In this document: in pieces, positions 128-64,000 of the stretch
How positions within the stretch are numbered: the stretch's first letter is position 1
Layout: every line of letters starts with the position of its first letter
From: Pristiophorus japonicus
Taxonomy: Eukaryota
DNA: 64,000 nt
NCBI RefSeq assembly: GCF_044704955.1
Contig: NC_091977.1
Coordinates: forward strand, 369,830,001-369,894,000
Direction of reading: 5' to 3'
Program-made: the position numbers and the translations under genes
The notes under the pieces: generated by a model
Databases searched by the model: none
What the model was told of the DNA's origin: nothing
The model's input: only the letters and a program-made list of their open reading frames with translations

Positions 128-1264
128 AACTGTGTACTTCAGTAATAAATTGCAAAGAACTAGTGGTGTAACACAGCAGTTGTACGAGGTATTAGAAGGC
201 CTACTAAAGAGTTTCACCACCACGACTGGAGTATGGAGTTCACTTTGAGCCTGAATGGTGTCATGTCACATGGTAGTAGAAGTCTACAGCCTATCTTGAA
301 GCAATTTACAATCTCTGAAATGCTTCTGGAATGCATTAATCTGAAAAGCAGAGTAATCCTATTCTGTATTAAGGGAGGTGAGGTCCCTTTTAAATCTGCA
401 AGTCTAATCAGCCAACTTCTGAGGCCAATCCTGTGATTATTGAGCAGGTTTCTTTTTATACATTCATGGGATGTGGGCATCATTGGCAAGGCCAGCATTT
501 ATTGCCCATCCCTAATTGCCCTTGAGAAGGTGATGGTGAGTTGCCTTCTTGAAACGCTGCAGTCGGTGTGGTGAAGGTACTCCCACAGTGCTGTTCGTGA
601 GGGAGTTCCAGGATTTTGACCCAACAAAAGGGAGGAAAGATGACATATTTCCCAGGCAGGATTGGGAAACTTTTAAAAACCAGCAAAGAACGACTAAAAA
701 AAAATAAAGAGAGGGAAGATAGATTATGAAAGCAAAGTAGGATGAGATAAAAAAAACAGATATTAAGAGTTTCTACAGGTACATAAAAAGGAAACGAGTG
801 GCTAAAGTAAATGTTGGTCTCCTCGAGGATGAGACTGGGGAATGAATAATGTGGAACAGGGAAATGACAGAGACTTTGAACAAATATTTTGTGTTAGTCT
901 TCATGGTAGAAGACACTAAAAACATCCCAATAGTGGATAATCAAGGGGCTATAGGGAGGGAGGAACTTAATACAATCACTATCACTAAAGAAGCAGTACT
1001 CGGTAAAATAATGGGACTAAAGGTGGAAAAGTCCCCTGGTCCTGATGGCTTGCATCCTCAGGTCTTAAAAGAAGTGGCTGCAGAGATAGTGGATGCATTA
1101 GTTGTAATCTACCAAAATTCCCTGGATTCTGGGGAGGTCCCAACGGATTGGAAAACCGTAAAAGTAACGCCCCTATTTAAAAAAGGAGGCAGACAGAAAA
1201 CAGGAAACTATAGACCAGTTAGCCTAACATCTGTCGTTGGGAAAATGATGGAGTCCATTATTAA

Positions 1265-1501
1265 TGTGGTGTATGTAGCACACAAATCACTGACTCCACA
1301 CGGTCTGGTGTAAGTCTAACTGCTGTGACCTTCGTCCTTTATTGTTCAGCTCCAGAGTGCCTCCCAGGTGTGGTGGTCACCCTTATATAATCCTTGTTAC
1401 AGGTACTACCAGGGTTTCCCACCGCAGCGCCCTCTGTGGTGTGGCATAGTACTTACATTACATTTAAGGTACTGGGACGATACACACATCATTACATAAC
1501 A
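1265..1501 (-). repeat. 3' LTR of the gag-protease element (237 bp)
   Basis: Direct repeat of 3670-3894; TATATAA and AATAAA on the minus strand. Confidence 0.95.
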
Positions 1502-1813
1502 TCACACTTGTCCAACGGAAGGCAGGTAGGCATAGACAGTGCGTTAATATGGTACATATTATCTGGTACATTAACTGGTTATTGACTGGCAGCGGAACCT
1601 TGATTTCCTTGTTAACCGTTATCATTAATTGTACTTCATCCATTATTTTACACAAATACAGTGGCCATTCAGCATAAAAAAAGTAATTCTTATTATAAAT
1701 TCACTATCTCACATTAACATAGCTCATTTTAGACTCGCTCTGCCAAACAGAAGTCCTTTGTGGGGACCACCTCTTTGTAAGGCCCTTTTAAGACTCCCGG
1801 GTGCATTTCCTCT

Positions 1814-3634
1814 TTAAGGCGCCATCTTTGATGCAGGAGGATTCCACGAGGCTTCTCCTTGGGCGCCGCCATCTTTGATGCTCTGCAGCTCCGACACGAT
1901 GCCGCCGCCATCTTCTTCTCCGCCGCTCCAAATGCCCTCCGCCGTCGCAGCCTCTGCTCCCCTCCTCTGCCACCTGACTTGCCACCTCTCCTGCGGCTGC
2001 CATGGTCTCTCCAGTGGCCGCACTTGCCACGTCCCCCACGGCCTCCATAGCGGCTGCCACCGCCCGACGCTACCAGCTCCTCGGCGGGGCCCGCCCAACG
2101 GCCTCTTCCTCTGCGGGACCCTTCCGAACCGCCGGCCCCTGGATCCCTCAGCACCCCTCCGGCTCACTCCCCCACCACTAGGCCCCTCTGTGCAGGGCTG
2201 CTTGCCTGTGGGGGCTGGGGCTGCAGGGTCTCTGTGTAAGATCCGGGCCTGGGACTTGCCTGTGGGGGCTGAGGCTGCAGGGTCTCTGTGTGAGATCCAG
2301 GCCTGGGACTTGCCTGTGGGTGGATTGAGGCTGCAGCTCCAGCTCGGTCGGCGCTGCTCTCTGGGGACCCGGGGCACGGCAGCACCCCGGGGAGCAGCAG
2401 CCTGTGCAGTGATGAAGTCTTCCCAGCTCCCACGGACCTTCCCCATCCACCTCCGGCCGAGGAGTGTCAGCCCATCGCCTGCAACGACCCACAAAGGTAA
2501 AGCGTGCGTCTCGTCCCCGTGGGATACCTGCACCATCGCTCTGCCGAGAACAGGTATTAGTTCCCTGGTGTAGGTACGCAGCTTTGCCGTGACCGGGACC
2601 AGCTTGGGTCGTGCAGCTGGGTTAATCCACAGTTTATCAAAAGTTCTCCGACTCATCAACGACGGACCCGAGCCCGTGTCCACTTCCATACTCACTGGGA
2701 CTCCGTTGATTTTTACTTCACTTATCACTGGGGGCGAATCGTCGGTACACGTATACAGTCCAAACACCTCATCTTCTTCTACCTGCTCCTCGCTAAACAG
2801 TAGATCATCCCCCATCTCCTCAGCCACACGGTGAGTCCGATTTCTTTTACACATACGCTGAAGGTGGCCTTTAACATGGCAGGTATTGCACGTGTACTCC
2901 GCAAACCTGCACCGGTGAGCCCCATGGCTTCCTCCACAGCGCCAGCATGGTGCTGCTTGATTGGCCCCCCTCGGCGGACTCTGAGCTCCAGGATCCCGAG
3001 GTCCATGCTCTCTGCCCCGGGCAGAGCCACGTTCTGCAGTTTTGTCCGTGGTGGGCGCTATCCTGTGGACATTGCCTGCCGGGTTCGAGACTGTGTGGAT
3101 CATTTGCTTGGTGCTGCAAGTCGAGGTCATATGTGCCCGGCTGATGGCGATGGCCTTTGTCAGAGTGACTGTGGGTTCCGTGGCCAGCAGCTTGTGAAGG
3201 AGGCCCTCGTGGCCAATCCCCATAACGAAAACGTCCCGCAAAGCCTCGTCAAGGTGTGCCCCAAAATCACACAGCGCCGCGAGTCTCCTGAGGTCCGCAG
3301 CATATTTGGTGACATCCTGGCCCTCGGGTCTGCAGTGATGGTAAAATTTGTATCTGGCCGTGAGGATGCTCTCCTTCGGTTTCAACTGGTCACGAATGAG
3401 TTCAGTCAGCTCCTCGTATGACTTGTCCCTGGCGCTCCCAGGTGCCAGCAAATCCCTGACGAGACAGTAAACCTCATCTCCACAACTGGAGAGCAATATC
3501 GCCTTACGCTTCTCTCTCATTGCGTATGTGTCCTCCGTCAGGTCATTTGTTGTGAAGTAGTACTCGAGCCTTTCCGTAAAGGCCTCCCAATCATTGCCCA
3601 TGGTAAAATCCTTTAGCGAGCCCAGAGTAGCCAT
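1814..3634 (-). CDS. gag: Gag-aspartic protease polyprotein with a low-complexity C-terminal extension (606 aa from MATLGS)
   Basis: Uninterrupted ORF; capsid-like W..F.ERL and LLSSCG...Y.L..DLLAP; two zinc knuckles (CWRCGGSHGAHRC, CNTCHVKGHLQRMC); protease EVDTGS and LLGR.W; then about 200 aa rich in R/G/P/A/W. Confidence 0.85.
   Translation of the reverse strand: MATLGSLKDFTMGNDWEAFTERLEYYFTTNDLTEDTYAMREKRKAILLSSCGDEVYCLVRDLLAPGSARDKSYEELTELIRDQLKPKESILTARYKFYHHCRPEGQDVTKYAADLRRLAALCDFGAHLDEALRDVFVMGIGHEGLLHKLLATEPTVTLTKAIAISRAHMTSTCSTKQMIHTVSNPAGNVHRIAPTTDKTAERGSARGREHGPRDPGAQSPPRGANQAAPCWRCGGSHGAHRCRFAEYTCNTCHVKGHLQRMCKRNRTHRVAEEMGDDLLFSEEQVEEDEVFGLYTCTDDSPPVISEVKINGVPVSMEVDTGSGPSLMSRRTFDKLWINPAARPKLVPVTAKLRTYTRELIPVLGRAMVQVSHGDETHALPLWVVAGDGLTLLGRRWMGKVRGSWEDFITAQAAAPRGAAVPRVPREQRRPSWSCSLNPPTGKSQAWISHRDPAASAPTGKSQARILHRDPAAPAPTGKQPCTEGPSGGGVSRRGAEGSRGRRFGRVPQRKRPLGGPRRGAGSVGRWQPLWRPWGTWQVRPLERPWQPQERWQVRWQRRGAEAATAEGIWSGGEEDGGGIVSELQSIKDGGAQGEASWNPPASKMAP
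2201..2320. repeat. 54-bp in-frame tandem repeat (about 2.2 copies)
   Basis: CTTGCCTGTGGG at 2201, 2255 and 2309; encodes PTGKSQAWISHRDPAASA / PTGKSQARILHRDPAAPA. Confidence 0.9.
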
Positions 3635-3656
3635 GGTTGCGTGGAGTTCATCCGCT

Positions 3657-3668
3657 TCCTCGTCGCCA
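3657..3668 (-). promoter_or_regulatory. Primer-binding site complementary to the tRNA-Ser(GCU) 3' end
   Basis: TGGCGACGAGGA immediately inside the 5' LTR; vertebrate tRNA-Ser(GCU) ends ...UCCUCGUCGCCA. Confidence 0.8.
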
Positions 3669-3669
3669 A

Positions 3670-3894
3670 TGTGGTGTATGTAGCACACAAATCACTGACT
3701 CCACACGGTCTGGTGTAAGTCTAACTGCTGTGACCTTCGTCCTTTATTGTTCAGCTCCAGGTGTGGTGGTCACCCTTATATAGTCCTTGTTACAGGTACT
3801 ACCAGGGTTTCCCACCGCAGCGCCCTCTGTGGTGTGGCATAGTACTTACATTACATTTAAGGTACTGGGACGATACACACATCATTACATAACA
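3670..3894 (-). repeat. 5' LTR of the gag-protease element (225 bp)
   Basis: Direct repeat of 1265-1501, lacking AGTGCCTCCCAG; followed by the PBS on the minus strand. Confidence 0.95.
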
Positions 3895-5458
3895 ATTAAG
3901 GAAGCAGCAACAGGATATTTGGAAAAGCATGATTCAATCAAACAGAGTCAGCGTGGTTTTATGAAAGGGAAATCATGTTTGACAAATTTTCTGGAGTTCT
4001 TTGAGGAAGTAACGAGCAGGGTGGATAAGGGGGATCTAGTGGATGTGGTGTATTTGGATTTCCAGAAGGCATTCGATAAGGTGCCACATTAAAGGTTACT
4101 GCACAAAATAAAAGTTCACAGGGTTGGGGGTAATATATTAGCATGGATAGAAGATTGGCTATCTAATAGAAAACAGAGTCGTGATAAATCGGTCATTTTC
4201 TGGTTGGCAAACAGTAACTGGTGGGGTGCTGCAGGGATTGGTGCTGGGGCCTCAACTATTTACAATCTTTATTAATGACTTGGATAAAGGGTCCGAGTGT
4301 AATGTAGCCAAGTTTTCTGATGATAAAACGGTGGGTGGGAAAGCTAATTGTGAGGAGGACACAAGAAATCTGCAAAGGGATATAAACAGGCTAAGTGAAT
4401 GGGCAAACATTTGGCAGATGGAGTATAATGTGGGAAAATGTGAGGTTATCCACTTTGGCAGAAAAAATAGAAATGCAAATTATAATTTAACTGGGGAAAA
4501 ATTACAAAGTACTGCAGTACAGAGGGACCTGGGGATCCTTGTGCATGAAACACAAACAGTTAATATGCAGGTACAGCAAGTAATCAGGAAGGCAAATGGA
4601 ATGTTGGCCTTTATTGCAAGGGGATAGAATATATAAGCAGAGAAGTCCTGCTACAACTGTATAGGGTATTGGTGAGGCCACACTTAGAGTACTACATACA
4701 GTTTTGGCCTCTGTATTTAAGAAAGTATATACTTGCATTGGAGAATGTTCAGAGAAGGTTCACTAGGTTGATTGCGGGAGATGAGGGGGTTGACTTATGA
4801 AAATAGGTTGAGTAGGTTGGGCCTACACTCATTGGAGTTCAAAAAAATGAGATGTGATCTTATTGAAATATATAAGATAATGAAAGGGCTCAACAAGGTG
4901 GATGCAGAGAGGATATTTCCACTCATAGGGGAAACTAAAACTAGGTGACATAGTCTCAGAATAAGGGGCTGCCCATTTAAAACTGAGATGAGGAGGAATT
5001 TCTTCTCTCAGAGTTTGAAAATCTGTGGAATTCTCTGCCCCAGAGAGCTGTGGAGGCTGGGTTATTGTATATATTTAATGCAGAGATAAACATATTTTTG
5101 AGCGATAAGTGAATAAAGGAATATGGGGAGCAGGCAGGGAAGCGGAGTTGAGTCCATGATCAGATCAGCCATGATCTTATTAAATGGCGGAGCAGGCTCG
5201 AGGGGCCAAATGGCCTATTTCTGCTCCTATTTCTTATGTTCTTATGTTTAAGATATGTGACTTGGAGGGGAACATGCAGGTGATGGTGTTCCCATGCGCC
5301 TGCTGCCCAAAATATCAACTAAAGCAGACATTGATGTCGAGATTCAACACCAACTCCAGTGCGCCAGTGCAGCCTTCAGCTGCCTGAGGAAAAGAGGGTT
5401 TGAAGACCAGGCTCTCAAATCTACCACCAAGCTCATGGTCTACAGGGCTGTAGTAATC

Positions 5459-8870: not shown

Positions 8871-11670
8871 AGATCGACCTAAGTAGAGAAAGTGCATCCG
8901 GGAGGACATTGAGCACTTCGAGTCTCAACACCGAGAGCATTCAGAGGTCAAGCGCAGGCAGCGGAAGGAGCATGCGGTAAACCAGTTCTATCCACCCCTT
9001 CTGTCAATGACTATCTGTCCCACCTGTGACAGAGTCTGTGGCTCTCATATTGGATTGTTCAGCCACCAAAGAACTCACTTCAGGAGTGGAAGCAAGTCTT
9101 CCTCGATTCCGAGGTACTGCCTATGATGATGATGCCCTTGTACTTCTAAGTGGTAATGATTGTAGGTTTGGAAGGTGCTGTCGAAGAAGTCTTGGCAAAT
9201 TGTTGCAGTGCATCTTGTAGATGGTATACACTGCAGCCACGGTACGCTGTGATGGAGCGAGTAAATGTTTAAGATGGTGGATGGGATGCCAATTAAGCAG
9301 GCTGCTGTGTTCTGGCTGTTGTCTGTTCTTGAGTGTTCTTGGAACTGCACTCATCCAGGTTAGTCGAGAGTATTCCATCACACTCCTGACTTGTGCATTG
9401 TAGTGGTGGAAAGGCTTTAAAGAATCAGGAAGTGAGTCACTTGCCACTGAATATCCAGGCTCTGACCTGCTCTTGTAACCACAGTATTTAAGTTTCTGGT
9501 CAATGCTATCCCCAGGATGTTGATGGTAGGGGATTTGATGATGATAATGCCATTGACTGTCAAGAGAAGGTGGTTTGACTCTCTCTTGTTAGAGATGGTC
9601 ATTGTCTGGCACTTGTGATGCAAATGTTACTTGTCACTTGTCAGCCCAAGCCAGAATGTTGTCCAGATCTTGCTGTATGCGGGCATGGACTGCTTCATTA
9701 TCTGGGGAGTTGTAAATGGGACTGAACACTATGCAGTCATCAGGGAACATCTCCACTTCTGACCTTATGATGGAGGGGAAAGTCATTGATGAAGCTTGGG
9801 CCTAGGACACAGCTCGGAGAAACTCCTGCAGTGATGTCCTGGGGCTGAGATGATTGGCGTCCAACAACCACAACAATCTTGCTTTGTGCTCGGTACGGCT
9901 CCAGCCAGTAAAGAGTTTTTCCCTGATTCCCATTGACTTCAATTTAACTAGGGCTCCTTAATGCCACACTTGGTCAAATGCTGCCTTGATGTTAAGGGTA
10001 GTCATTCTCAACTCAGCTCTGGAATTCAGTTCTTTTGTTCATGTTTGGACCAAGGCTGTAATGAAGTGTGGACCCAAGTGATCCTGGTGAAACCCAAACT
10101 GAGTATTACTAAGCATGTTATTAGTGATTAAGTGTCACTTGTTAGCACTGTCGACGGCCCCTTCCATCGCTTTGCTGATGATTGAGAGTAGACTGATGGG
10201 GCGGTAAACTACCCAATTGATTTGTCCTGTTTTTTTGTGGACAGGAAATACCTGGGCAATTTTTCACTTTGTCAGGTAGATGCCAGTGTTGTAGTTGTAC
10301 TGGAATAGCATGACTCGAGGCACGGCTAGTTCTGAACCACAAGTCTTCAGTATTACAGCAAGGATATTGTCGGGGCCCATAGACTTTACTGTATTCAATA
10401 CGCTCAGCTGTTTCTTGATATCACATGCAGTGAATCGAATTGGCTGTTGACTGGCATTTGTGATAGTGGGGACCTCAGGAGGAGGCCGAGTTGGGTCTTA
10501 CCTTCGCCACTTCTGGCTGAAGACGATGGCAAATGCTTCTGCCTTGTCTTTTGCACTCACAAAAGATGGGGATGTTCCTGTCGCCTCCTCCTCCCATTAG
10601 TTGTTTAATTGTCCAGTACTATTCACGATTGGATGTGGCAGGACTGCAGAGCTTTGATCTGATCTGTTGGTTGTGGGATCACTTAGCTCTGTCTATAGCA
10701 TGCTGCTTTTGCTGTTTAGCTTGCATGTAGTCCTGTGTTGCAGTTTCACCAGGTTGCTACCTAATTTTTAGGTATGCCTGGTGCTGCTCCTGACATGTTC
10801 TTCTATACTCCTCTGGCTTGCCGGTAATGGTAGAGTGAAGGATATGGTGGGCCATAAGTTTACAGATTGTGGTGGAATACAATTCTGCTGCTACTGATGG
10901 CTCACAGCACCTCATGGATGCCCAGTTTTAAGCGTCTAGATCTGTTCTGAATCTATCCCATTTAGCACGGTGGTAGTGCCGCACTACACGATGGAGAGTG
11001 TCCTCAGTGTGAAGACAGGACTTTGTCTGCACAAGGTTGACCATTGGACTTCAATCTCGCCAGTGGAATTTGCGTCATGGGAACCCGATTTAAATATATT
11101 CATTAGGAACTGCCTAAAACCAGCAGATGCATTTCAGAACATGGAAAATTGCTGTGGGTCAGTTGATGGGACGAGAGCAGCAAGTAAATTCCCTCGATTT
11201 TAACCATTCACCTGCCCATTAAAACCAGGGCCATCATGTCCAGCAGTTTGATGTTTCCCTGAGTAGCATGAAGCAGACCTAGGAGCCAAAATTGCCACTC
11301 TCGTTAAGACCCATTACCGCCTCTAAGATAGGCCTCACCGACCGGGGGCAGGCAGTTGGGCCAACCTGTCCAAAATTGCCCTGGGCCTGTGTCATGTATG
11401 TAACCTCTATGTAACACCACTGCAATACAGTATTTACTTAAGCAATGTACACCTTGACCACAGGGGGTGAACTTGTGGGAGACACTCCTTACCTGGTCAT
11501 CCAGGTATATAAAGAGAGGTCCCATGCAGGGTCATGACTTCTTGGTCCTGTGAATAAAGGTTCAGGTCATAGAGTGACCTTGTCCATAGAATGTGCCTCG
11601 CGTGGGTTTTGTGCCATTGAGTAAGGACATTACATTGGCGATGAGAAACATGAATCAACGACCCACGAGA

Positions 11671-14600
11671 ATGGCCACCGGTAGCACAGAGGAATGGTAC
11701 TGTGTTGGTGAGGACTGGGACGATTTCATTGAGAGGCTCCAGCAAAGCTTTGTCATGAAAGAATGGCTGGGAGATGCAGCAGCCGACAAGCGAAGGGCCC
11801 ATCTGCTAACCAGCTGCGGACCTAAGACTTGCGCGCTCATGAAGGACCTACTAGCACCCGAAAAGCCGGCGGACAAAACCTTTGAAGAGCTCAGCAAACT
11901 AATCGGTGAGCACCTCAAACTGGCGAGCAGCATACACATGGCCCAACACAGATTCTATACCCACCGACGTCGTGAAGGACAGAGCATACCGGACTTCGCT
12001 GCGGACCTCCGGCATTTGGCCAGCCTCTGTAAGTTCACAGATGCCTGCAGGGGGGAGATATTAAAGGACTTCTTTATTGAGGGCATCGGTCATGTGGGGA
12101 TTTTCCGAAAATTAATTGAGATCAAGGACTTGACTTTGGAAGCGGCGACATTGATGGCTCAGACTTTCATGGTGGGGGAGGAGGAAACCAAAATAATATA
12201 CGCGTGCAATTCTGCCTCCAACGCAGTGGGGGATCAGGGAGTCAATATCATAAACGTGACTCAGAGCCCTGCAGGCAGGCAGGGGCAGTTCCACACACCC
12301 CAGGCAGCAATAGACCCCAGAGTCGGTTTTCAACAGAGACAATGGCAGGCTGAACAGACATTTACGCCATCACAGCGGTCCAGGATGGGGCCATTGACAC
12401 CCACTAACAGGGTACTCAAGTGCAGTCAAAGGGACAATCAGCGAGGAATGCTGGGTCATAGCTCCTTTGTTCACAACAATGGGAATCTCAGCTCATGCTG
12501 GAGGTGTGGCGGCAAACACTCTGCCAGGACTTGCAGGTTTCAACAATTTGACTGCAGAAATTGCAACCTCAGTGGCCATTTAGCTCATATGTGCAGGAAC
12601 CAGGCTAATTTACGAGGCGGATGGACCAGAAGAAGGGTCTGTGAGGCAGGATGACTGTTGGGGCAAATCAATGGACGCTGAAGTTCAGCGAGTTCATGTG
12701 GCAAACATTCACAGCTCATATACCAAAATGCCACCAATGATGATGAAGGTTTTATTAAACGGCATCCCTGTACACATGGAGCTGGACACGGGGGGCCAAT
12801 CAGTCACTCATGATCGTTCAACAATTCGAAAAGCTATGGCCACTCAAAGGCAGTAGACCCAAACTAGAATGCATTGAGACACAACTACGGACATATACCA
12901 AAGAAATCATTCCAGTACCAGGCAGTGCAATGTTGGTGGTCACACACAATGGATCAGTGAATCGGCTGCTGCTCTGGATTGTCCCAGGCAATGGTCCCAC
13001 ACTGTTGGGGAGGAGCTGGTTAGCTGAGATGAACTGGAAATAGGGGTTGTGCACGCAATTTCATCTGTGGAGCGAAGTTCGTGCTCACAAGTCCTACAAC
13101 AACTTGAGTTACTATTCCAACCTGGCATCAGGACGTTCAAATGTACCAAAGTAATGATACGCATCACCCCGGATGCCAGACCAGTGCACCACAAAGCCAG
13201 AATGGTGCCGTATGTGATGCAGGAGAAAATTGAGAGCAAATTGGACCGAGATGAGGAGAAACTTCTTCACCCAGAGAGTGGTGAACCTGTGGAATTCTCT
13301 ACCACAGGAAGTTGTTGAGGCCAATTCACTAAATATATTCAAAAAGGAGTTAGATGTAGTCCTTACTACTAGGGGGATCAAGGGGTATGGCAAGAAAGCA
13401 GGAATGGGGTACTGAAGTTGCATGTTCAGCCATGAACTCATTGAATGGCGGTGCAGGCTCGAAGGGCCGAATGGCCTACTCCTGCACCTATTTTCTATGT
13501 TTGCTGAGAGAGGGCATCATCTCGCCCGTTGAATTCAGCGACTGGGCGAGCCCCATCATTCCCGTCCTAAAAGCGGATGGTTCTGTCAGGATCTGTGGCG
13601 ACTACAGGGCCACTATCAATCGGGTGTCCCTACAAGACCAATACCCGCTCCCAAGAGCGGAGGATCTTTTTGCCACGCTGACAGGCGGCAAGCTGTTTAC
13701 CAAGTTGGATCTCACTTCAGCCTACATGACCCAAGAACTGCCCGACGAATCTAAACGACTGACCACCATCACTATGCACAAGGGACTGTTCATTTACAAC
13801 AGGTGCCCATTTGGCATTCGATCAGCGGCCACGATTTTTCAAAGGAACATGGAAAGCCTGCTCAAATCCATTCTGGGAACAATCGTATTTCAGGGCGACA
13901 TCCTCATCACGGGTCGTGACACGGAGGAACACCTCCACAACCTGGAGGAGGTGCTACGCTGACTGGACCAGGTAGGCCTGCGACTCAAGAAGTCTAAATG
14001 TGTGTTTTTGGCGCCTGAGGTTGAGTTCCTGGGCAGCAGGGTTGCTGCAGAGGGGATTCAGCCCACCGAATCCAAAACAGAGGCGATTCGACGAGCGCCC
14101 AGGCCCGGCAACACATCGGAGTTGCGTTCATTTCTGGGACTCTTGAACTATTTCGGGAACTTTCTGCCGAACTTAAGCACGTTGTTGGAGCCACTTCACG
14201 TGCTACTGCGTAAGGGTTGTGATTGGTTTTGGGGGCACTGTCAAGAACGGGCTTTCAATCGGGCGCGGAACCTACTTTGTTTAAATAAGTTATTGACCCT
14301 GTACGACCCCTATAAGAAATTGGTTCTGACATGTGATGCACCGTCCTATGGGGTTGGGTGCGTGTTACAGCAGAGTAATGCTGAGGGCCAACTACAACCT
14401 GTGGCTTATGCTTCCAGGTCGCTCTCTCAAGCCGAACGGGGATATGGGATGGTTGAGAAGGAGGCACTCATGTGTCTATGGGGTAAAAAAAATGCATCAG
14501 TACCTTTTTGGCAGGAGGTTCGAATTAGAAACGGACCACAAGCCGTTAACATCCCTGTTGTCAGACAGCAAGGCTGTCAATGCCAACGCGTCAGCTCGCA

Positions 14601-16096
14601 TAAAGCGATGGGCTCTCGCGCTGGCTGTTTATGATAACTCCATCCGGCACCGGCCTGGCACCAAAAATTGCGCTGACGCACTCAGCAGGCTTCCACTGGC
14701 CACCACTGAGGGGGCAGCGGAACAAAGCGCTGAGATGGTCATGGCCGTTGATGCCTTTGACAGCGCATGCTCCCCCATCACAGCCCGCCAGATCAAAATC
14801 TGGACCAACAGAGATCCCCTCCTATCCTTGATTAAGAAATGTGTCCTGACTGGGGATTGGGCGCTCGCACACGGAGCATGCCCTGAGGAGGTCAGACCGT
14901 TTCACAGGCGGATGGATGAGCTCTCCATCCAAGCTGACTGCCTACTATGGGGCAGCCGGGTAGTCATGCCCCAGAGGGGCAGGGAAGCATTCATCAGGGA
15001 ACTCCACAGCGAGCATCCAGGCATCGTTCTGATGAAGGCCATTGCCCGGTCACATGTTTGGTGGCCGGGAATTGATTCAGACCTGAAACACTGTGTTCGC
15101 AGGTGCATGACGTGTGCCCAGCTGGGTAATGCCCCCAGGGCGGCCCTGCTCAGCCCGTGGCCCTTGCCCACCAGGCCATGGTCACGTATTCATGTAGTCT
15201 ATGCGGGCCCGTTCATGGGAAAAATGTTTCTCATTGTGGTAGATGCTTACTCGAAATGGATCGAGTGCATCATTTTGAATTTGTGCATGACATCCACCAC
15301 TGTGGAGAGTCTATGTGCGGTCTTTGCAACCCACGGCTTGCCGGACATCCTTGTTAGCGATATTGGCCCATGTTTCACGAGCTACAAATTCCGGGAGTTC
15401 ATGTCGGGCAATGGCATCAACCATGTCAGGACAGCACAGTTCAAGCCGGCCTCCAATGGCCAGGCGGAACGTGCGGCCCAAATCATTAAACAAGGCATGC
15501 TCAGGATTCAAGGACCCTCCCTTTAATGCCGCCTATCGCGCCTCCAGCTGGCCTATAGGTCCCGACCGCAGTCACTCACGGAGGTCCTGCCCGCTGAGCT
15601 ACTTATGAAACGAACACTCAAAACTCGGTTGTCCCTCATTCACCCACTCCTGACCGACATAGTTGAGGGTAAGCGCCAGTCCCAAAACGAGGACCATGAC
15701 CGAAATTCAAGGGGGAGATGTATAGAAATAAATGATCCTGTATTTGTCCTCAATCACGCCGTGGGGCCCACATGGCTTGAGGGTACTGTAATAGACAAAG
15801 AGGGGAACAGGGTCATCGTGGTTCAACTTTACAATGGGCAGATATGCCGTAAGCATCTGGACCAAGTAAAAATAAGATTCAGCATGGACACTGAGGAACC
15901 CTAGGAAGATCATGAGATGGTGCTCACACCACCGCCAGTGAACAAGCAACAAGAACATTCAGCAGCATGCATAGTCCCGGCAGTCAACCCGGAATCATCA
16001 CAGGTGACAGACACTCACGCCAAGGCTCAACAACCAGAGCCCTAACTGCGGCGCTCCATGAGGGAGCATAGACCACGTGAAAGACTTAACCTATGA
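11671..16096 (+). pseudogene. pol: gag-pol pseudogene with frameshifts, stops and a CR1 insertion
   Basis: Two zinc knuckles; MELDTG protease; RICGDYR, KLDLTSAY and PFGI (RT); LTCDA, TDHKPL and ADALSR (RNase H); H-H-C-C zinc finger, VDAYSKW and ASNGQAER (integrase). Confidence 0.9.
13246..13500 (+). mobile_element. Short CR1 3'-end insertion in the Gypsy pol gene
   Basis: [20 protein letters not shown] plus 3' UTR and tail; interrupts ESKLDR|LLREGIISPV. Confidence 0.9.
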
Positions 16097-17077
16097 TCCC
16101 AATAAGACTTTGGGGGGGGGAGGTGATATCATGTATGTAACCTCTATGTAACACCACTGCAATACTGTATATACTTAAGCAATGCACACCTTGATCACAA
16201 GGGGTGAACTTGTGGGAGGCACTCCTTACCTGGTCATCCAGGTATATAAATTAAGTCCCACGCGGGGTAATCACTTCTTGGTCCTGTGAATAAAGGTGCA
16301 GGTCATAGAGTGACCTTGTCCATAGAATGTGCCTCGCGTGGGTTTTGTGCCATTGAGTAAGGACATTACAGCCTGGAATGGCAAGAACTGGTTTCCGCAC
16401 TGCCCATGCTGCCGCCCCATCAGGCACGTGCCATCCCGCTTTCAACAGGCGGTGACCTCACTTTGCACTCCGCGCGGGAAATTGCCCCGTTGGAGTGGAT
16501 CGGCCACCGGTTGCTACCATTGACAGCTTTCCCCTGTGGGAAGCTGTGAGCGGCTATGTGGCCCGTCTGCCCTTAAAGGGGAGGGCGCACTGCCGCGGAC
16601 ACCGTTTTATTTAATTTGTCGGCCGACTCCGGGGTCGACCCAACAATGGTGGCCACGGGTTCGGCCCGGCCGCCAACAGGCAGCACGGCCGAAAACCTCC
16701 CTGGTGGCTCAGTGGGCCTAACTCAATCCCATGTAGAGCTCGCAGCGGCCCTCCCCTTTAACCGCACTGCAGCTGACCCGACATCTGCCGCAACCAAAAA
16801 AAAAGACCTGGATATCGCTCTATTCTCTGCTCCATCAATTGGGGCGGAGATAAATCTTCAAAACCTGTGAGTGCGCCTACTCTTAGTCAGAGGGCAAATT
16901 CATCCCCCTACAGTTTTACTGTGATAGAATTACATCGAAATTACAGCATAGAAACAGGATATTCGGTCCAACTGGTCTATGCCGGTTCCACATGAGCCCG
17001 CTCCAACTCTATTACATCTAACCCTAATCCAGCTTTGAATAAAATGTGAATTTAACACTCAGCAACAAAGTTCTTAT

Positions 17078-23886: not shown

Positions 23887-26800
23887 TCAGAATAACTCCA
23901 CAAGATTGTATACTGTAAGCTCAAACTGATCTGACCTTAGTCTCTTTAATCAAACTCCAGAGTGCCGAAGCAGCATGGCAGACAACCTTTTATATTTGCT
24001 TGCACGAGGTGTGCAAGTGACCCTTGGGTCTCCAACAGGTGCGCCCCCTGGTGGCAAGTCTTACACTATTATAAAGTTTACATACATAACATCACTCCCC
24101 CCACCCCCACCCCCACCCCAAAGTCTTAGATACAAGTTATTTACAAGTTGAGGCGATCAGGGGCTCTTTATTCCTGGATTGATCGCCTGAGTTGAAGTCC
24201 TGGCATGGGTGAGTTGGTCGGATCATTGCTGTACTGCAGCGCGGCTGGTCTGATCGGACTGTCGGGCATGGTGGGTTCATCCTCGTGATTGATAGTGAGG
24301 TCGATTGCTGGTTGGGTGTGTGTTGGTGGATCAATGATGGTAATGTCCTCTTCAAACTGTTCTTGGTTGTCAGTGAATCGCAGTTTGGTCTGATCCAAGT
24401 GCTTTCTGCATGTTTGTCCATTCAGAAGTTTGACAACAAACACTCTATTCCCCTCCTTGGCTAAAACAGTGCCAGCAACCCATTTGGGACCATGACCGTA
24501 ATTAAGAACAAATACAGGGTCATTAACCTCAGTGTCACGTGATACAGCCGCGCGATCGTGGTACATGTTATGCCAGTGACACCAGGTTTCTATATGATCA
24601 TTGCGATCCGGGTGGACTAAGGAGAGCCTGGTTTTGAGTGCTCTCTTCATTAACAATTCTACCGAGGGAATCCCGGTAAGCGAGTGGGGTCGTGTCCGGT
24701 AGCTGAGCAGAACCCGAGACATCCAGGTTTGCAGGGAACCGTCCGTCATGCATTTCAAGCTCTGCTTGATAGTTTGGACTGCACATTCCGCTTGACCGTT
24801 GGAAGCGGGTTTAAATGGGGCAGACCTGACATGTTTGATGCCATTACGGGTCATGAACTTGTTGAATTCCGAGCTGGTGAAACATGGTCCATTGTCACTA
24901 ATAAGGACGTCAGGCAAAACATTGGTGGCGAACATGGCCCAGAGGCTTTCAATGGTGGCAGTGGACGTACATGATGACATTATTACACATTCAATCCATT
25001 TAGAGTAAGCGTCCACTGCTAATAGGAACATCTTTCCTAGAAATGGGGCCAGCAAAATCTACATGGGCCTTGAACCACGGTTTGGAGGGCCATGACCACA
25101 GGCTCAGTGGGGCCTCCCTTGGTTCATTGCTCAACTGTGAGCAAGTGCTACATTGGTGTACGCATGCCTCCAATTCCGAGTCAATGCCAGGCCACCAAAC
25201 GTGCGACCCGGCGATAGCCTTCATCATAACTATGCCTGGGTGGGTACTGTGTAGGTCACGTATAAAGGTTTCCCTGCCTTTTTTTTGAAAACCACGCGAT
25301 TCCCCCATAGGAGACGATCCGATTGGATGGACATTTCATCCTTGTCGGTAAAACGGCTTAATTTCGTTTTGCATTTCCCCGGGAACAGCTGACCAGCTCC
25401 CATTAAGGAAGCAGTTTTTTACTAGTGATAGCACAGGGTCCAGGCTAGTCCAGGTCCTGATCTGGCGAGCCGTGACGGGTGACCCCTCGCTCTCAAAGAC
25501 ATCCATTAAAAGAAGCAAGTCTGCGGGTTGCGCCATTTCCATCCTGGTGGTGGGCAATGATAGCCGACTGAGGGCATCAGCACAGTTCTCAGTGCTTGGT
25601 CTGTGGCGGATTACATAGTCATACGCAGATAATGTTAGTGCCCATCTTTGGATGTGGGATAAAGCATTGGTGTTAATAACTTTGATTTCTGAGAACAGCG
25701 AAATGAGCAGTTTGTGGTCGATTTCGAGCTCCAAATAGGTATTGGTGCATTTTCTTAACCCCATATACGCATGCTAATGCTTTTTTCTCACCTGTACTAT
25801 AGGTTCTTTCAGCCTTAGATAAACTTCTGTATGCATATGCAACCGGTTTCAGTTTGCCTGACACATTGGCTTGCTGTAACACACAACCAACCCCCTACGA
25901 AGATGCATCACAAGCTAGTACTAAATGTTTACATGGGTCATACAATACTAGTAACTTGTTACAACATAGCAGGTATCGGGCCTTATTGAAGGCTGTCTCT
26001 TGAGATTTACCCCAAACCCAGTCATCACCCTTACGTAGCAATAAATGCAAAGGTTCCAGCAAAGTGCTCAACCCGGGTAGAAAGTTACCAAAATAGTTGA
26101 GGAGTCCCAGGAACGAACGCAGCTCCATCACATTCTATGGTCTGGGTACATTCTTGATGGCCTCTGTCTTTGATGCTGTGGGTCTGATGCCGTCTGCCGC
26201 AATATTTCTCCCCAAATATTCGGCCTCGGGCACCAGGAAAACATACTTGGAGCGTTTCAGCCTGAGTCCCACTCTGTCCAGTCGCTTTAGAACCTCTTCC
26301 AGGTGTGCAGGTGCTCGCTGGTGTCACCACCAGTGATCAGGATGTCTTGAAACACAACGGTGCGCGGAACCGATTTCAGCAGACTCTCCGTGTTCCTCTG
26401 GAAGATGGCAGCAGCCGAGCGAATGCCAAAAGGGCATCTGTGGTATAGGAACAGTCCTTTGTGCGTGTTGATGCACGTTAATCTTTTTGAAGATTCAGCT
26501 AGCTCCTGTGACATGTAAGCAGAGGTTAGATCCAGCTTGGTGAATGACTTCCCCACCCCTGCTAGCGTTGCGAACAGGTCCTCCACTTTGGGTAGTGGGT
26601 ACTGGTCCTGTAACAAGACTCGGTTGATCGTTACTTTGTAGTCTCCACAGATTCTGGCCGTACCATCGCTTTTCAACACCGGAACAACTGGACTGGCCCA
26701 CTCGTTGAACTTGACTGGCGATATAATTCCCTCTCATTGAAGTCTGTTTAGTTTGATCTCGACTTTCTCCCACATCATATATGGAATCTCTCGGGCCATG

Positions 26801-28401
26801 CATCAGACACTAGATGGATCTGGACTTTGGCGCCTGTGAAGTTGCCGATGCCTGGCTCAAATAGCGACGGAAATTTGTTTAGCATTGAGGGCACGGGGCA
26901 TCATCCACCGAAAACAGCACTTTGATGTTGTCCCAGTTCCATTGGATCTTTCCTCGGCAGCTTCTGCCGAACAGCGTTGGGTCATCGCCTGGTTCAATCA
27001 TGCACAGCTTCATCATACGATACTTTCACTGCTGCACTGCCAATGAGCTGGTATGAGCTCTTTGGTGTAAGTGCACAGTTTTGTATGAATCGGGCTTAGT
27101 TTTGGCCTTTGTGCCTTGTTGCCCCACAGTTTCTCAAAAGCCTTCTGACTCATAATTGACTGACTCGCCCCCGTGTCCAATTCCATGGAAACTGGAATGT
27201 CATTTAATTTGACTTTCAACATTATCGGAGGGTTTTTGGTGGTGAAGGTGCGTACCCCATACACTTCCTCTTCAGCTTCGGATTGAGTTGCCTCTCTTAC
27301 TCGTTCAGCATGATCCGTGCCGGATCGGTCATCTTCTGCCAACTCTGCCACGTGGTGAGTCGCAGCATGTTTGCACATTCACTGGCGGTGCCCCATTGTT
27401 CCGCAGCCTTTGCACACGTAGTGCTTGAATCGACATTGACGGGCTCTATGAATACCCCCGCAGCACAATCATGGTGTTAATGGATTCACATTCACGCCCC
27501 ACAGCGGACTCTGAGTCATCCTAGGTCTGGCCTCTGCGGGCGTGTAGGCCCTGCCATGCACAGTTCTGCCTGCTGAAGGCGTTATTTTATGCACAGTACT
27601 TGCTGGTGAGCTTCGATGCTGAGAAGATATCTGCTTAGTGTTATCGTTCGTGGACATGAAAGCCTGGGCTATCGTGATGGCCTTGCTTAGATCTAGGAAT
27701 TCGACAGACAGCAGTTTGCGAAGAATGACCTCGTGGCCGATTCCAAGCACAAAAAAGTCCCGCAACATTTCCCCCCAAAAATCCAGCAAATTCGCACGGT
27801 CCCCAAGGCATCTTAGGTCGGCAACATAGCTCGCCACGTCCTGGCCCTCGGAGCGATGGTGCGTATAAAAGCGACACCTGGCCATTAAGATGCTCTCCTT
27901 CGGCTTGAGGTGTTCCCGAACCAGCGTACACAACTCTGCATATGTCTTGTCCGTTGGTTTCGTCGGTGCTAGCAGATTTTTGATAAGACCATATATCGTG
28001 GACCCACAAACGGTGAGGAGAATCACCCTGCACTTGACCACTTTACTGTCTGTATCCAGCTCATTGGCAACGAAGTACTGGTCAAGACGCTCAACGAAGG
28101 CTTCCCATTCATGACCCTCAACAAATCTCTCAAGAATACCAACGGCAGCCATAACCACGTGAAAGTTCGTGATCTGTTTCTCGTCTCCAATTGTTATGTT
28201 CAGAATAACTCCAAGACTGTATGCTGTAAGCTCAAACTGATGTGTCCTTAGTCTCTTTAATCAAACTCCAGAGTGCCAAAGCAGCATGGCAGACAACCTT
28301 TATATTTGCTTGCACGAGGTGTGCAGGTAACCCTTGGGTCTCCAACAGGTGCGCCTCTTGGTGGCAAGTCTTGCACTATTCTAAAGTTTACATACATAAC
28401 A
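23887..28401 (-). mobile_element. Full-length degraded Ty3/Gypsy (Mag-like) LTR retrotransposon
   Basis: LTRs 23887-24091 (outer ~8 bp missing) and 28192-28401; PBS TGGAGACGAG; PPT at 24092-24120; gag-PR-RT-RH-IN. Confidence 0.95.
24168..28152 (-). pseudogene. pol: gag-pol pseudogene
   Basis: Fragmented ORFs: WEAFVERL, MELDTGAS, ICGDYK, KLDLTSAY, LACDASS, ADALSR, HVDFAGP, ASNGQAE. Confidence 0.9.
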
Positions 28402-63362: not shown

Positions 63363-64000
63363 TGTTAAGTCTTGAATAAAGAGTCAGACTAGATACTGCA
63401 AGCTCAAAGTAAGTGTGACCGTAGTCCTTTAATTACAAATCTGAGTGCCTCTACAAACTGTGAGGCCTCCTTATATACAGGTGCTCCCAAGGAATTGTGG
63501 GATCCTTTGGGACTCCAGGAGATAAGCCCTCTGGTGGTTAGATATGGTAATTACAGGTTTACATACATAACAACACTCCGCCCCCCCCCCCGCACCCCCC
63601 CCAAAAGTCAATAGTGTAATTATTTACAATGTGAGTCAATCTGGGGCCTTCCTTTCCCTAGTTGCTTGTCTCGGTGCAAATGCTGGTGTTGGTGAGTCGT
63701 TTGTTGGGCCTTCACTGGGCTGCTGCGGAGCTGGCCTTGCTGGACTGATGGGGGTGATGGGTTCTGCTTCGTGGTTAACCGTTGGGTCGATTGCCACTTG
63801 TGTGTGTGTTGGAGGGTCGAATGTGGGTTGTTCTGGACAGTCCGTAAGTCTGAGTTTAGTTTGGTCCAAGTGTTTTCTGCAGGTGAGTCCATTTGCGAGC
63901 TGGACCACAAACACCCTACTCCCCTCTTTGGCCAAAACAGTGCCAGAAATCCACTTGGGACCTTGTCCATAGTTCAACACAAATACAGGATCATTTACTT
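63363..64000 (-). mobile_element. 3' end of a fourth Ty3/Gypsy element (3' LTR 63363-63572, PPT, integrase C-terminus), running off the window
   Basis: TG...CA LTR; PPT at 63573-63602; NYGQGPKWISGTV...CRKHLDQTKLR homologous to the C-terminus of ORF 24168-25055. Confidence 0.9.

What the first reader, a model, noticed from the sequence alone, without database searches (positions are those of the whole stretch)
1265..3894. Young gag-protease-only LTR element with an intact ORF and a novel tail replacing pol
Seen: near-identical LTRs, a perfect 5-bp TSD, a PBS and the only long uninterrupted TE ORF in the window (606 aa). After the protease there is no RT, RNase H or integrase remnant, only about 200 in-frame codons of GC-rich sequence and a 310-bp AT-rich UTR unlike the three sibling Gypsy elements. 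Known: gag-only non-autonomous families (TR-GAG) are described in plants. Inference: this is a separate trans-mobilised family that keeps capsid and protease under selection and borrows Pol, rather than a one-off deletion. The tail could act as packaged cargo or as an interfering Gag.
Basis: partly seen in the sequence, partly recalled or inferred. Interest (0 to 1): 0.7.

Follow-up and report, generated by a model that had tools for sequence, protein, structure and literature searches.

The report
Pol-less retrotransposon carrying captured host gene
This shark jumping gene lacks its copying enzymes yet has more than a thousand relatives in the genome, and its odd tail is the worn-down remains of a host cold-shock RNA-binding gene, likely picked up from a co-packaged mRNA.

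Summary
It is a Mag/K02A2.6-type Gypsy element with gag and protease but no pol. A 24-nt tail motif occurs 1,334 times genome-wide. None of 177 fetched stretches has pol between the protease end and that motif. Gag-protease is under purifying selection between subfamilies (net dN/dS 0.24, neutral expectation 0.67).

The tail is not novel. Window ~1920-2336 is a decayed piece of a host intronless RBM3/CIRBP-like gene. Sister subfamily C carries that gene at 82-83% identity, fused in frame to the protease. Subfamily D carries a second paralog with its 5' UTR plus an antisense dsRNA-binding-motif fragment. The cargo evolves neutrally as protein.

The window copy is less intact than reported: its distal tail is read in a minority frame and its polypurine tract is deleted. 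No Pol donor with the same LTR was found among 22 full-length elements compared. No RNA run was listed. No earlier scan note describes this family. Verdict: a new variant of known kinds (TR-GAG/Athila-like, plus Bs1-like gene capture).

The parts
3670..3894 (-). 5' LTR (225 nt; 12-nt deletion relative to the 3' LTR)
3657..3668 (-). Primer-binding site complementary to the tRNA-Ser(GCT) 3' end
   Evidence: copy L010 carries a longer tRNA-matching PBS
2720..3634 (-). gag: capsid region, linker and two Cys/His knuckles; Mag/K02A2.6-type
   Evidence: net dN/dS 0.18 capsid, 0.08 knuckles
2420..2720 (-). Aspartyl protease, ending where RT begins in full-length relatives
   Evidence: Pfam PF13650; catalytic Asp kept in 75 of 77 copies; net dN/dS 0.27
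2337..2420 (-). Post-protease linker shared by subfamilies A, C and D; 5' edge of the cargo slot; origin unknown
1920..2336 (-). Decayed RBM3/CIRBP-like cargo: RRM start expanded into a 54-nt tandem repeat (2201-2308), G-tract, remains of the RRM C-half, then RGG/GY-derived sequence
   Evidence: alignment series host-C-C2-A2-A and shuffle test; blastn E 1.5e-6 at about 1939-2001; repeat number 1-37 among copies
1700..1915 (-). Conserved ~200-nt block present in all subfamilies, differing by frameshifting indels, so likely a non-coding cis element; function unknown
   Evidence: no structure signal; no Rfam match
1502..1700 (-). AT-rich 3' UTR, a shortened form of the longer UTR in subfamilies B, C and D; polypurine tract deleted at its 3' end between direct repeats of the LTR start
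1265..1501 (-). 3' LTR (237 nt)
1260..1264 (+). Target-site duplication, left copy
3895..3899 (+). Target-site duplication, right copy

Best explanation
This is one copy of a large Gypsy (Mag-type) family that keeps gag and protease under purifying selection but has no pol, so it likely builds its own particles and borrows RT and integrase from other families; its tail is the decayed remains of a host RBM3/CIRBP-like gene, likely captured by template switching onto a co-packaged mRNA. Shown: a variable slot between the protease and a conserved 3' block holds different host pieces. Subfamily D holds the 5' UTR and RRM first half of one paralog plus an antisense dsRNA-binding-motif fragment. Subfamily C holds another paralog from codon 5 to past its stop, in frame, with a 69-nt in-frame deletion. 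The window's subfamily A is a further-decayed form of C's cargo. Inferred: selection on Gag and protease acts in cis because each copy's Gag helps package its own RNA, while the cargo rides along neutrally. The window copy has lost its polypurine tract by a recurrent deletion between direct repeats and is probably a dead end.
For: Multi-copy: all 40 scored junction hits are 97-100% identical (3,181 candidates); 1,334 exact motif hits, control 0. 68 of 70 loci have two LTRs, median 2,726 bp, 55 of 68 with exact TSDs. Of 40 position-ordered copies, 37 have paired LTRs; the only one with pol inside is a nested foreign element with its own TSD. Selection: net dN/dS A vs B 0.24 (0.16-0.36), CpG-masked 0.21; unbiased A vs C 0.24 (0.14-0.37), vs D 0.24; neutral expectation from 98 LTR pairs 0.67. 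Cargo: subfamily C hits PDB RBM3 at E 1.6e-7 and CIRBP at 1e-5; Pfam RRM_1 E 8e-12 in D. Four intact intronless host genes on C7; three have no element sequence within 10 kb and none has this family's LTR or gag. Both paralog types exist in rays. C is 82-83.5% identical to L189/L190 and D163 87% to L188. Window tail vs host CDS scores 54, against 300 shuffles with mean 21.9 and max 32. D's match starts 30 nt after a TATA-like box, near the expected mRNA start. Cargo neutral.
Against: No Pol donor found: 20 RT-selected elements have 35-48% gag-protease identity; six of them plus two other full-length elements have 41-52% LTR identity. They share only termini, PBS type and PPT context, and are 20 of 211,894 RT candidates. 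The donor genes are intronless, so DNA-level capture is not excluded. The fusion is in frame in C (16 of 30 in frame to the host stop, 9 of 30 fully open) and in 7 of 10 D copies printed, more orderly than pure hitchhiking needs. Net dN/dS of host vs C is 0.44 (0.23-0.94), but this mixes in the host branch. C vs D gag-protease divergence is too small to test (0.69, 0.28-2.39). A direct match to the host scores only over about 65 nt of the window tail; the rest rests on intermediates.
Confidence: 0.82

Rival explanations
1. The RBM3-derived basic RGG tail was kept because, fused to Gag-protease, it aids RNA packaging, particle assembly or cold performance, and is or was a selected part of the element.
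For: In-frame 5' junction, an in-frame 69-nt deletion and use of the host stop in C. In-frame fusion in 7 of 10 D copies shown. Two separate captures from one gene family. A keeps a G/R-rich tail, and its repeat unit is 54 nt.
Against: dN/dS within C is 0.57 (0.46-0.72), against neutral 0.52-0.57. The A tail is 0.78 (0.61-1.02) against 0.88, and its RGG part 1.02. Only 36 of 80 A copies keep the frame across about 200 nt of tail, against 49 of 84 across 1.2 kb of gag-protease. RNP1 is deleted in C. Subfamily B spread without a recognisable RBM3 piece.
Confidence: 0.1
2. The subfamilies are repeated deletion products of an unseen autonomous family with the same gag and LTR, and the selection signal was inherited from it.
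For: Only 20 of 211,894 RT candidates were inspected. The searches list only top hits.
Against: All subfamilies share one protease-end junction and one 3' block. A's cargo is a decayed form of C's, so the A-C gag divergence (net dS 0.19, dN/dS 0.24) arose after pol was gone, unless gag was swapped in. A pattern for this protease end followed by an RT start gave 0 hits (no positive control). 0 of 177 stretches have pol in the slot.
Confidence: 0.05
3. The copies are kept by the host as an interfering Gag (copy-number control) or as domesticated genes.
For: 22 of 68 copies have an ORF of 410 aa or more from the gag start. Four copies are annotated as RBM3-like proteins.
Against: Many dispersed insertions with different TSDs. 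Most copies are broken. The tree is star-like with ordinary terminal branches, and no single conserved locus stands out.
Confidence: 0.03

Closest known systems
TR-GAG elements of plants (PMC8704663, passages on TR-GAG read)
   Same: Two LTRs, one gag-type ORF, no pol, trans-mobilised.
   Different: This one is a vertebrate Gypsy element, keeps the protease and carries host cargo. The Arabidopsis example is Copia-derived and has a highly similar autonomous partner; none was found here.
Pol-less Athila families (PMC2410132, passages read)
   Same: Whole Gypsy families without pol, with ORFs under purifying selection, thought to use Pol of other families.
   Different: Athila keeps gag with or without env; the word 'protease' has 0 occurrences in that paper's main text, and the passages read describe no host-gene capture.
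Maize Bs1 (as described in review PMC13317346, passages read; primary paper PMC2899935 not held)
   Same: An LTR element with segments of several host genes forming a chimeric ORF.
   Different: Here the cargo is RNA-binding-protein genes, differs between subfamilies, was amplified to hundreds of copies or more, and evolves neutrally.
LTR-mediated retroposition in animals (Tan et al. 2016, PMC5131818; abstract and passages read)
   Same: Host mRNA pieces inside LTR elements, multi-gene chimeras, often in frame, with further retroposition as non-autonomous elements.
   Different: In the passages read the cases are young retrocopies found in small numbers. Here the chimeras founded large subfamilies that kept gag-protease under selection through serial cargo turnover.
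Mag/K02A2.6-like Gypsy elements (P0002, P0009, window siblings)
   Same: Gag-protease 30-48% identical; same PBS type, PPT context and LTR layout. The 'Mag' clade name is recalled; 'K02A2.6-like' comes.
   Different: No RT, RNase H or integrase; long 3' region with cargo.

Membership tests
Gypsy LTR retrotransposon (Mag/K02A2.6-type) derivative | TG..CA LTRs, TSD, tRNA PBS | tested here: met
Gypsy LTR retrotransposon (Mag/K02A2.6-type) derivative | Gag-protease homologous to full-length elements with RT and integrase domains | tested here: met
   54 proteins at E <= 1e-20, best 40% identity; sibling 46%
Gypsy LTR retrotransposon (Mag/K02A2.6-type) derivative | Clade placement by RT phylogeny | not testable with these tools
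   the element has no RT
Gypsy LTR retrotransposon (Mag/K02A2.6-type) derivative | Polypurine tract before the 3' LTR | tested here: not met
   absent in the window copy and 9 of 79 A copies; present in the family
TR-GAG / Pol-less gag-keeping families | Two LTRs, gag ORF, no pol, multi-copy with independent TSDs | tested here: met
TR-GAG / Pol-less gag-keeping families | ORF encodes Gag only | tested here: not met
   protease kept and selected, cargo fused; works like TR-GAG but is not filed as one
TR-GAG / Pol-less gag-keeping families | Purifying selection on gag | tested here: met
TR-GAG / Pol-less gag-keeping families | Identified autonomous partner | tested here: inconclusive
   none among the 22 full-length elements compared; pattern search 0 hits
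LTR-mediated gene capture (Bs1 type; Tan et al. 2016) | Host gene segment inside an LTR element, with an intact donor elsewhere | tested here: met
LTR-mediated gene capture (Bs1 type; Tan et al. 2016) | Intron loss proving an RNA intermediate | not testable with these tools
   donor ORFs are intronless; the D piece starts near the predicted transcription start
LTR-mediated gene capture (Bs1 type; Tan et al. 2016) | Microsimilarity at the switch points | tested here: inconclusive
   short shared words visible at the junctions; pre-capture sequence unknown, no statistic run
LTR-mediated gene capture (Bs1 type; Tan et al. 2016) | Chimeric transcript expressed | not tested
   no RNA run was available to test it

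The most novel reading that the evidence does not exclude
A vertebrate retrotransposon lineage gave up pol and became a cargo vector that repeatedly captures mRNAs of host RNA-binding proteins (two cold-shock RBM3/CIRBP paralogs and an antisense dsRBM gene) because they help it. Either the RGG tail fused to Gag-protease aids packaging in a cold-water germline, or the host-like sequence blunts small-RNA silencing because the host cannot target it without hitting its own genes.
Probability: 0.12. Interest if true: 0.85.

Novelty: new variant of a known kind. Interest (0 to 1): 0.58.

Why it matters
It gives a large natural series, in a vertebrate, of Pol-less elements that keep capsid and protease under selection. 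Cis-preference of Gag and cross-family borrowing of Pol become testable on more than a thousand copies. It shows LTR-mediated gene capture continuing to mass amplification, with the whole path from intact host gene to unrecognisable tail preserved in one genome. The captured pieces also hint at which host mRNAs enter retrotransposon particles in the shark germline. Practically, such copies inflate gene annotation: four UniRef 'RNA-binding protein 3-like' entries begin with element sequence.

Tried and rejected
Tail as decayed pol: rejected. L149/L161 as the autonomous partner: rejected, a foreign element nested in the protease with its own TSD. Intron-bearing CIRBP-type genes on C18 as donors: weaker, 70-81% over 104 nt or less. 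A PPT-less transposing sublineage: not supported. No substitution is shared by more than 4 of 9 such copies, their mean distance is 0.059 against 0.054 to others, and they span two LTR variants. An AU test on 8 of them did not reject one clade (p 0.53), and L001 and L014 are sisters, so it is not excluded. RNA structure in the conserved block: z 0.59, 1 of 31 pairs compensatory, no Rfam match below E 0.75. Origin of the block, the UTR, the B/D GC-rich insert and the L151 insert: 15 frames with no significant Pfam hit; the UTR search returned 40 full-length hits at 98-100%, taken to be family copies. Donor of the dsRBM fragment: no nucleotide match among 12 dsrm loci; the closest protein is about 25% identical (L235; the ADAD1-like label is recalled). 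ESM Atlas gave no usable hit for the window tail. Expression: no RNA holder listed; contigs of X1 and X2 cover 30 and 29 of 30 bins, which says nothing on transcription. Tree: L204 and L217 have very long branches (likely inserts) and were dropped; bootstrap had not settled. Rows dropped before counts: duplicates L024 and L025, tiny L032 and copies with large inserts, as listed in each script. The B set was chosen by protein similarity, which can lower dN; the result repeats with position-ordered A and DNA-chosen C. Literature: searches returned 0 papers; the listings showed no title describing this family. Repbase and Dfam could not be searched, so it may exist there. No supplements were read.

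Full report
Anatomy. The element lies on the minus strand at 1265-3894. Its LTRs (3670-3894 and 1265-1501) differ by 1 base in 225 and one 12-nt indel, and an exact 5-bp TSD flanks it inside a LINE RT-type frame. The PBS matches the 3' end of tRNA-Ser(GCT): the pattern has 120 genomic hits, and 2 of 4 loci scanned were called as that tRNA. The 606-aa ORF holds gag, two knuckles and an aspartyl protease. Its first 410 aa match 54 gag-pol proteins at 27-40% identity, two named K02A2.6-like. The tail has no pol similarity and no match to the window's other Gypsy elements.

It is a family. The protease-tail junction gave 3,181 candidates, and all 40 scored are 97-100% identical across it. Of 70 loci, 68 have two LTRs (median 2,726 bp, 55 exact TSDs, median LTR divergence 2.5%). 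A protein 80% identical to the ORF, labelled Pristiophorus japonicus by UniRef, matches the genome at 100% and opened subfamily B. A 24-nt motif shared by A and B occurs 1,334 times, with control 0. The first 40 such places on C1 gave 37 two-LTR elements; the one with pol inside is a nested foreign element. Over 190 fetched stretches (some overlapping), 177 had both the protease end and the 3' block, and none had pol between them. A gag-protease tree orders the subfamilies B-D-C-A, with intermediates between C and A; it is unrooted and support is rough.

Selection. Net pairwise dN/dS in gag-protease is 0.24 (0.16-0.36) between A and B, and 0.21 with CpG columns masked. It is 0.24 (0.14-0.37) between position-ordered A copies and C. 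The neutral value expected from the mutation spectrum of 98 LTR pairs is 0.67. The catalytic Asp is kept in 75 of 77 copies. Because A's tail is a decayed form of C's, this selection acted after pol was lost; this is an inference and assumes no gag swap.

The tail. In subfamily C the frame after the protease hits RBM3 (E 1.6e-7) and CIRBP in PDB, with about 20 RRM residues missing. Subfamily D (359 candidates) carries a different RRM piece (Pfam E 8e-12). A degenerate motif search found six host loci: four intact intronless genes on C7 and two CIRBP-type loci on C18, of which the one read has introns. C matches L189/L190 at 82-83.5% from codon 5 through the stop into about 45 nt of 3' UTR, with a 69-nt deletion. 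D matches L188 at 79-87%, including 79 nt of 5' UTR that begins 30 nt after a TATA-like box. Both paralog types occur in rays, so the direction is host to element. The alignment host-C-C2-A2-A shows stepwise decay: a duplication inside the RRM start becomes A's 54-nt repeat, the RRM frame breaks, and the 3' part is lost. The window's 1930-2345 scores 54 against the host CDS, against a mean of 21.9 and a maximum of 32 in 300 shuffles. D also holds an antisense fragment with a dsRNA-binding motif (Pfam E 3.7e-6 in 1 of 3 D frames scanned), of which C keeps a remnant. Its donor was not found.

Is the cargo selected? In 30 C copies, 16 are in frame to the host stop and 9 are fully open. Their dN/dS is 0.57 (0.46-0.72) against a neutral 0.52-0.57, while gag-protease in the same copies is 0.44 against 0.67. 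In 84 A copies the tail gives 0.78 (0.61-1.02) against 0.88. The frame across the G-tract region is kept in 36 of 80 copies. The window's stop-free tail is unlikely under plain base shuffling (48 of 5,000), but the other two sense frames have only 1 and 3 stops and one antisense frame has none. The distal part is read in a minority frame. An open tail is therefore weak evidence of function.

The 3' region. A block of about 200 nt is 71-79% identical between A and B while its neighbours turn over. It differs by frameshifting indels and lies after the stop in C, so it is likely a cis element. No structure or Rfam support was found. Most A copies have a duplicate of the LTR's first ~25 nt upstream of a G-rich polypurine tract. 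The window copy and 8 others of 79 have deleted the tract between these repeats, apparently independently (a single clade is not rejected).

Partner. Twenty RT-selected elements share 35-48% gag-protease identity. Six of them, the window's sibling and the nested element share 41-52% LTR identity, and most share the PBS type and PPT context. No same-LTR donor was found, but the sample is small against 211,894 RT candidates.

Mechanism and comparison. Shown: Pol-less spread, selection on gag-protease, host origin and neutral decay of the cargo. Inferred: own particle formation, borrowed Pol, and capture by template switching, as proposed for animal LTR retrocopies in PMC5131818 (abstract and passages). 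Pol-less families under selection are known in plants (PMC2410132, PMC8704663; passages), and multi-gene capture in Bs1 (PMC13317346; passages). MaLR as a mammalian gag-only parallel is recalled, not checked. The combination in a shark, with protease kept and serial capture of RNA-binding-protein genes, did not appear in my searches or in earlier scan notes. Verdict: new variant of a known kind, interest 0.58.

Noticed in passing
L162:1540-2190 (-); subfamily D, L162-L181: Antisense host fragment with a dsRNA-binding motif inside a subfamily with about 359 candidate places; donor gene not found.
   Followed up: partly
L188-L191 (G000:C7:219.50-219.76 Mb): Cluster of four intronless RBM3/CIRBP-like genes, apart from the intron-bearing CIRBP-type locus on C18; ray protein models fuse similar tandem genes.
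   Followed up: partly
P0078-P0081: Four database proteins named 'RNA-binding protein 3-like' are element copies; they begin with protease-end or gag sequence.
   Followed up: yes
L049, L067 and other A copies; window 2201-2308: The 54-nt repeat varies from 1 to 37 units; L049 reaches an 1,124-aa open frame.
   Followed up: partly
L156, L114 and D copies, just after the protease linker: A GC-rich insert shared by B and D, with no Pfam hit; possibly another captured 5' region.
   Followed up: partly
L151, about 330-690 nt after the protease end: A further unrelated insert replacing part of the C cargo.
   Followed up: partly
L032: A 597-bp two-LTR derivative with an exact TSD (TRIM-like or an internal deletion).
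   Followed up: no
L161:2096-6187 (counted on the reversed strand): A full-length Gypsy element of another family nested in the protease of a C-type copy; several family copies in turn sit inside pol of other Gypsy elements (L141, L143, L157).
   Followed up: partly
window 23900-28400 (-), 11590-16100 (+), 63639-63998 (-): Broken pol-bearing Gypsy siblings; the one at 23.9-28.4 kb has 46% gag identity and about 51% LTR identity to this element.
   Followed up: partly
L010, L144 PBS: The PBS extends further along the tRNA-Ser end than in other copies, as expected if the primer end was copied in.
   Followed up: partly
run X2 (organism B): Contigs of a run with a different organism label cover 29 of 30 bins of the element.
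   Followed up: no
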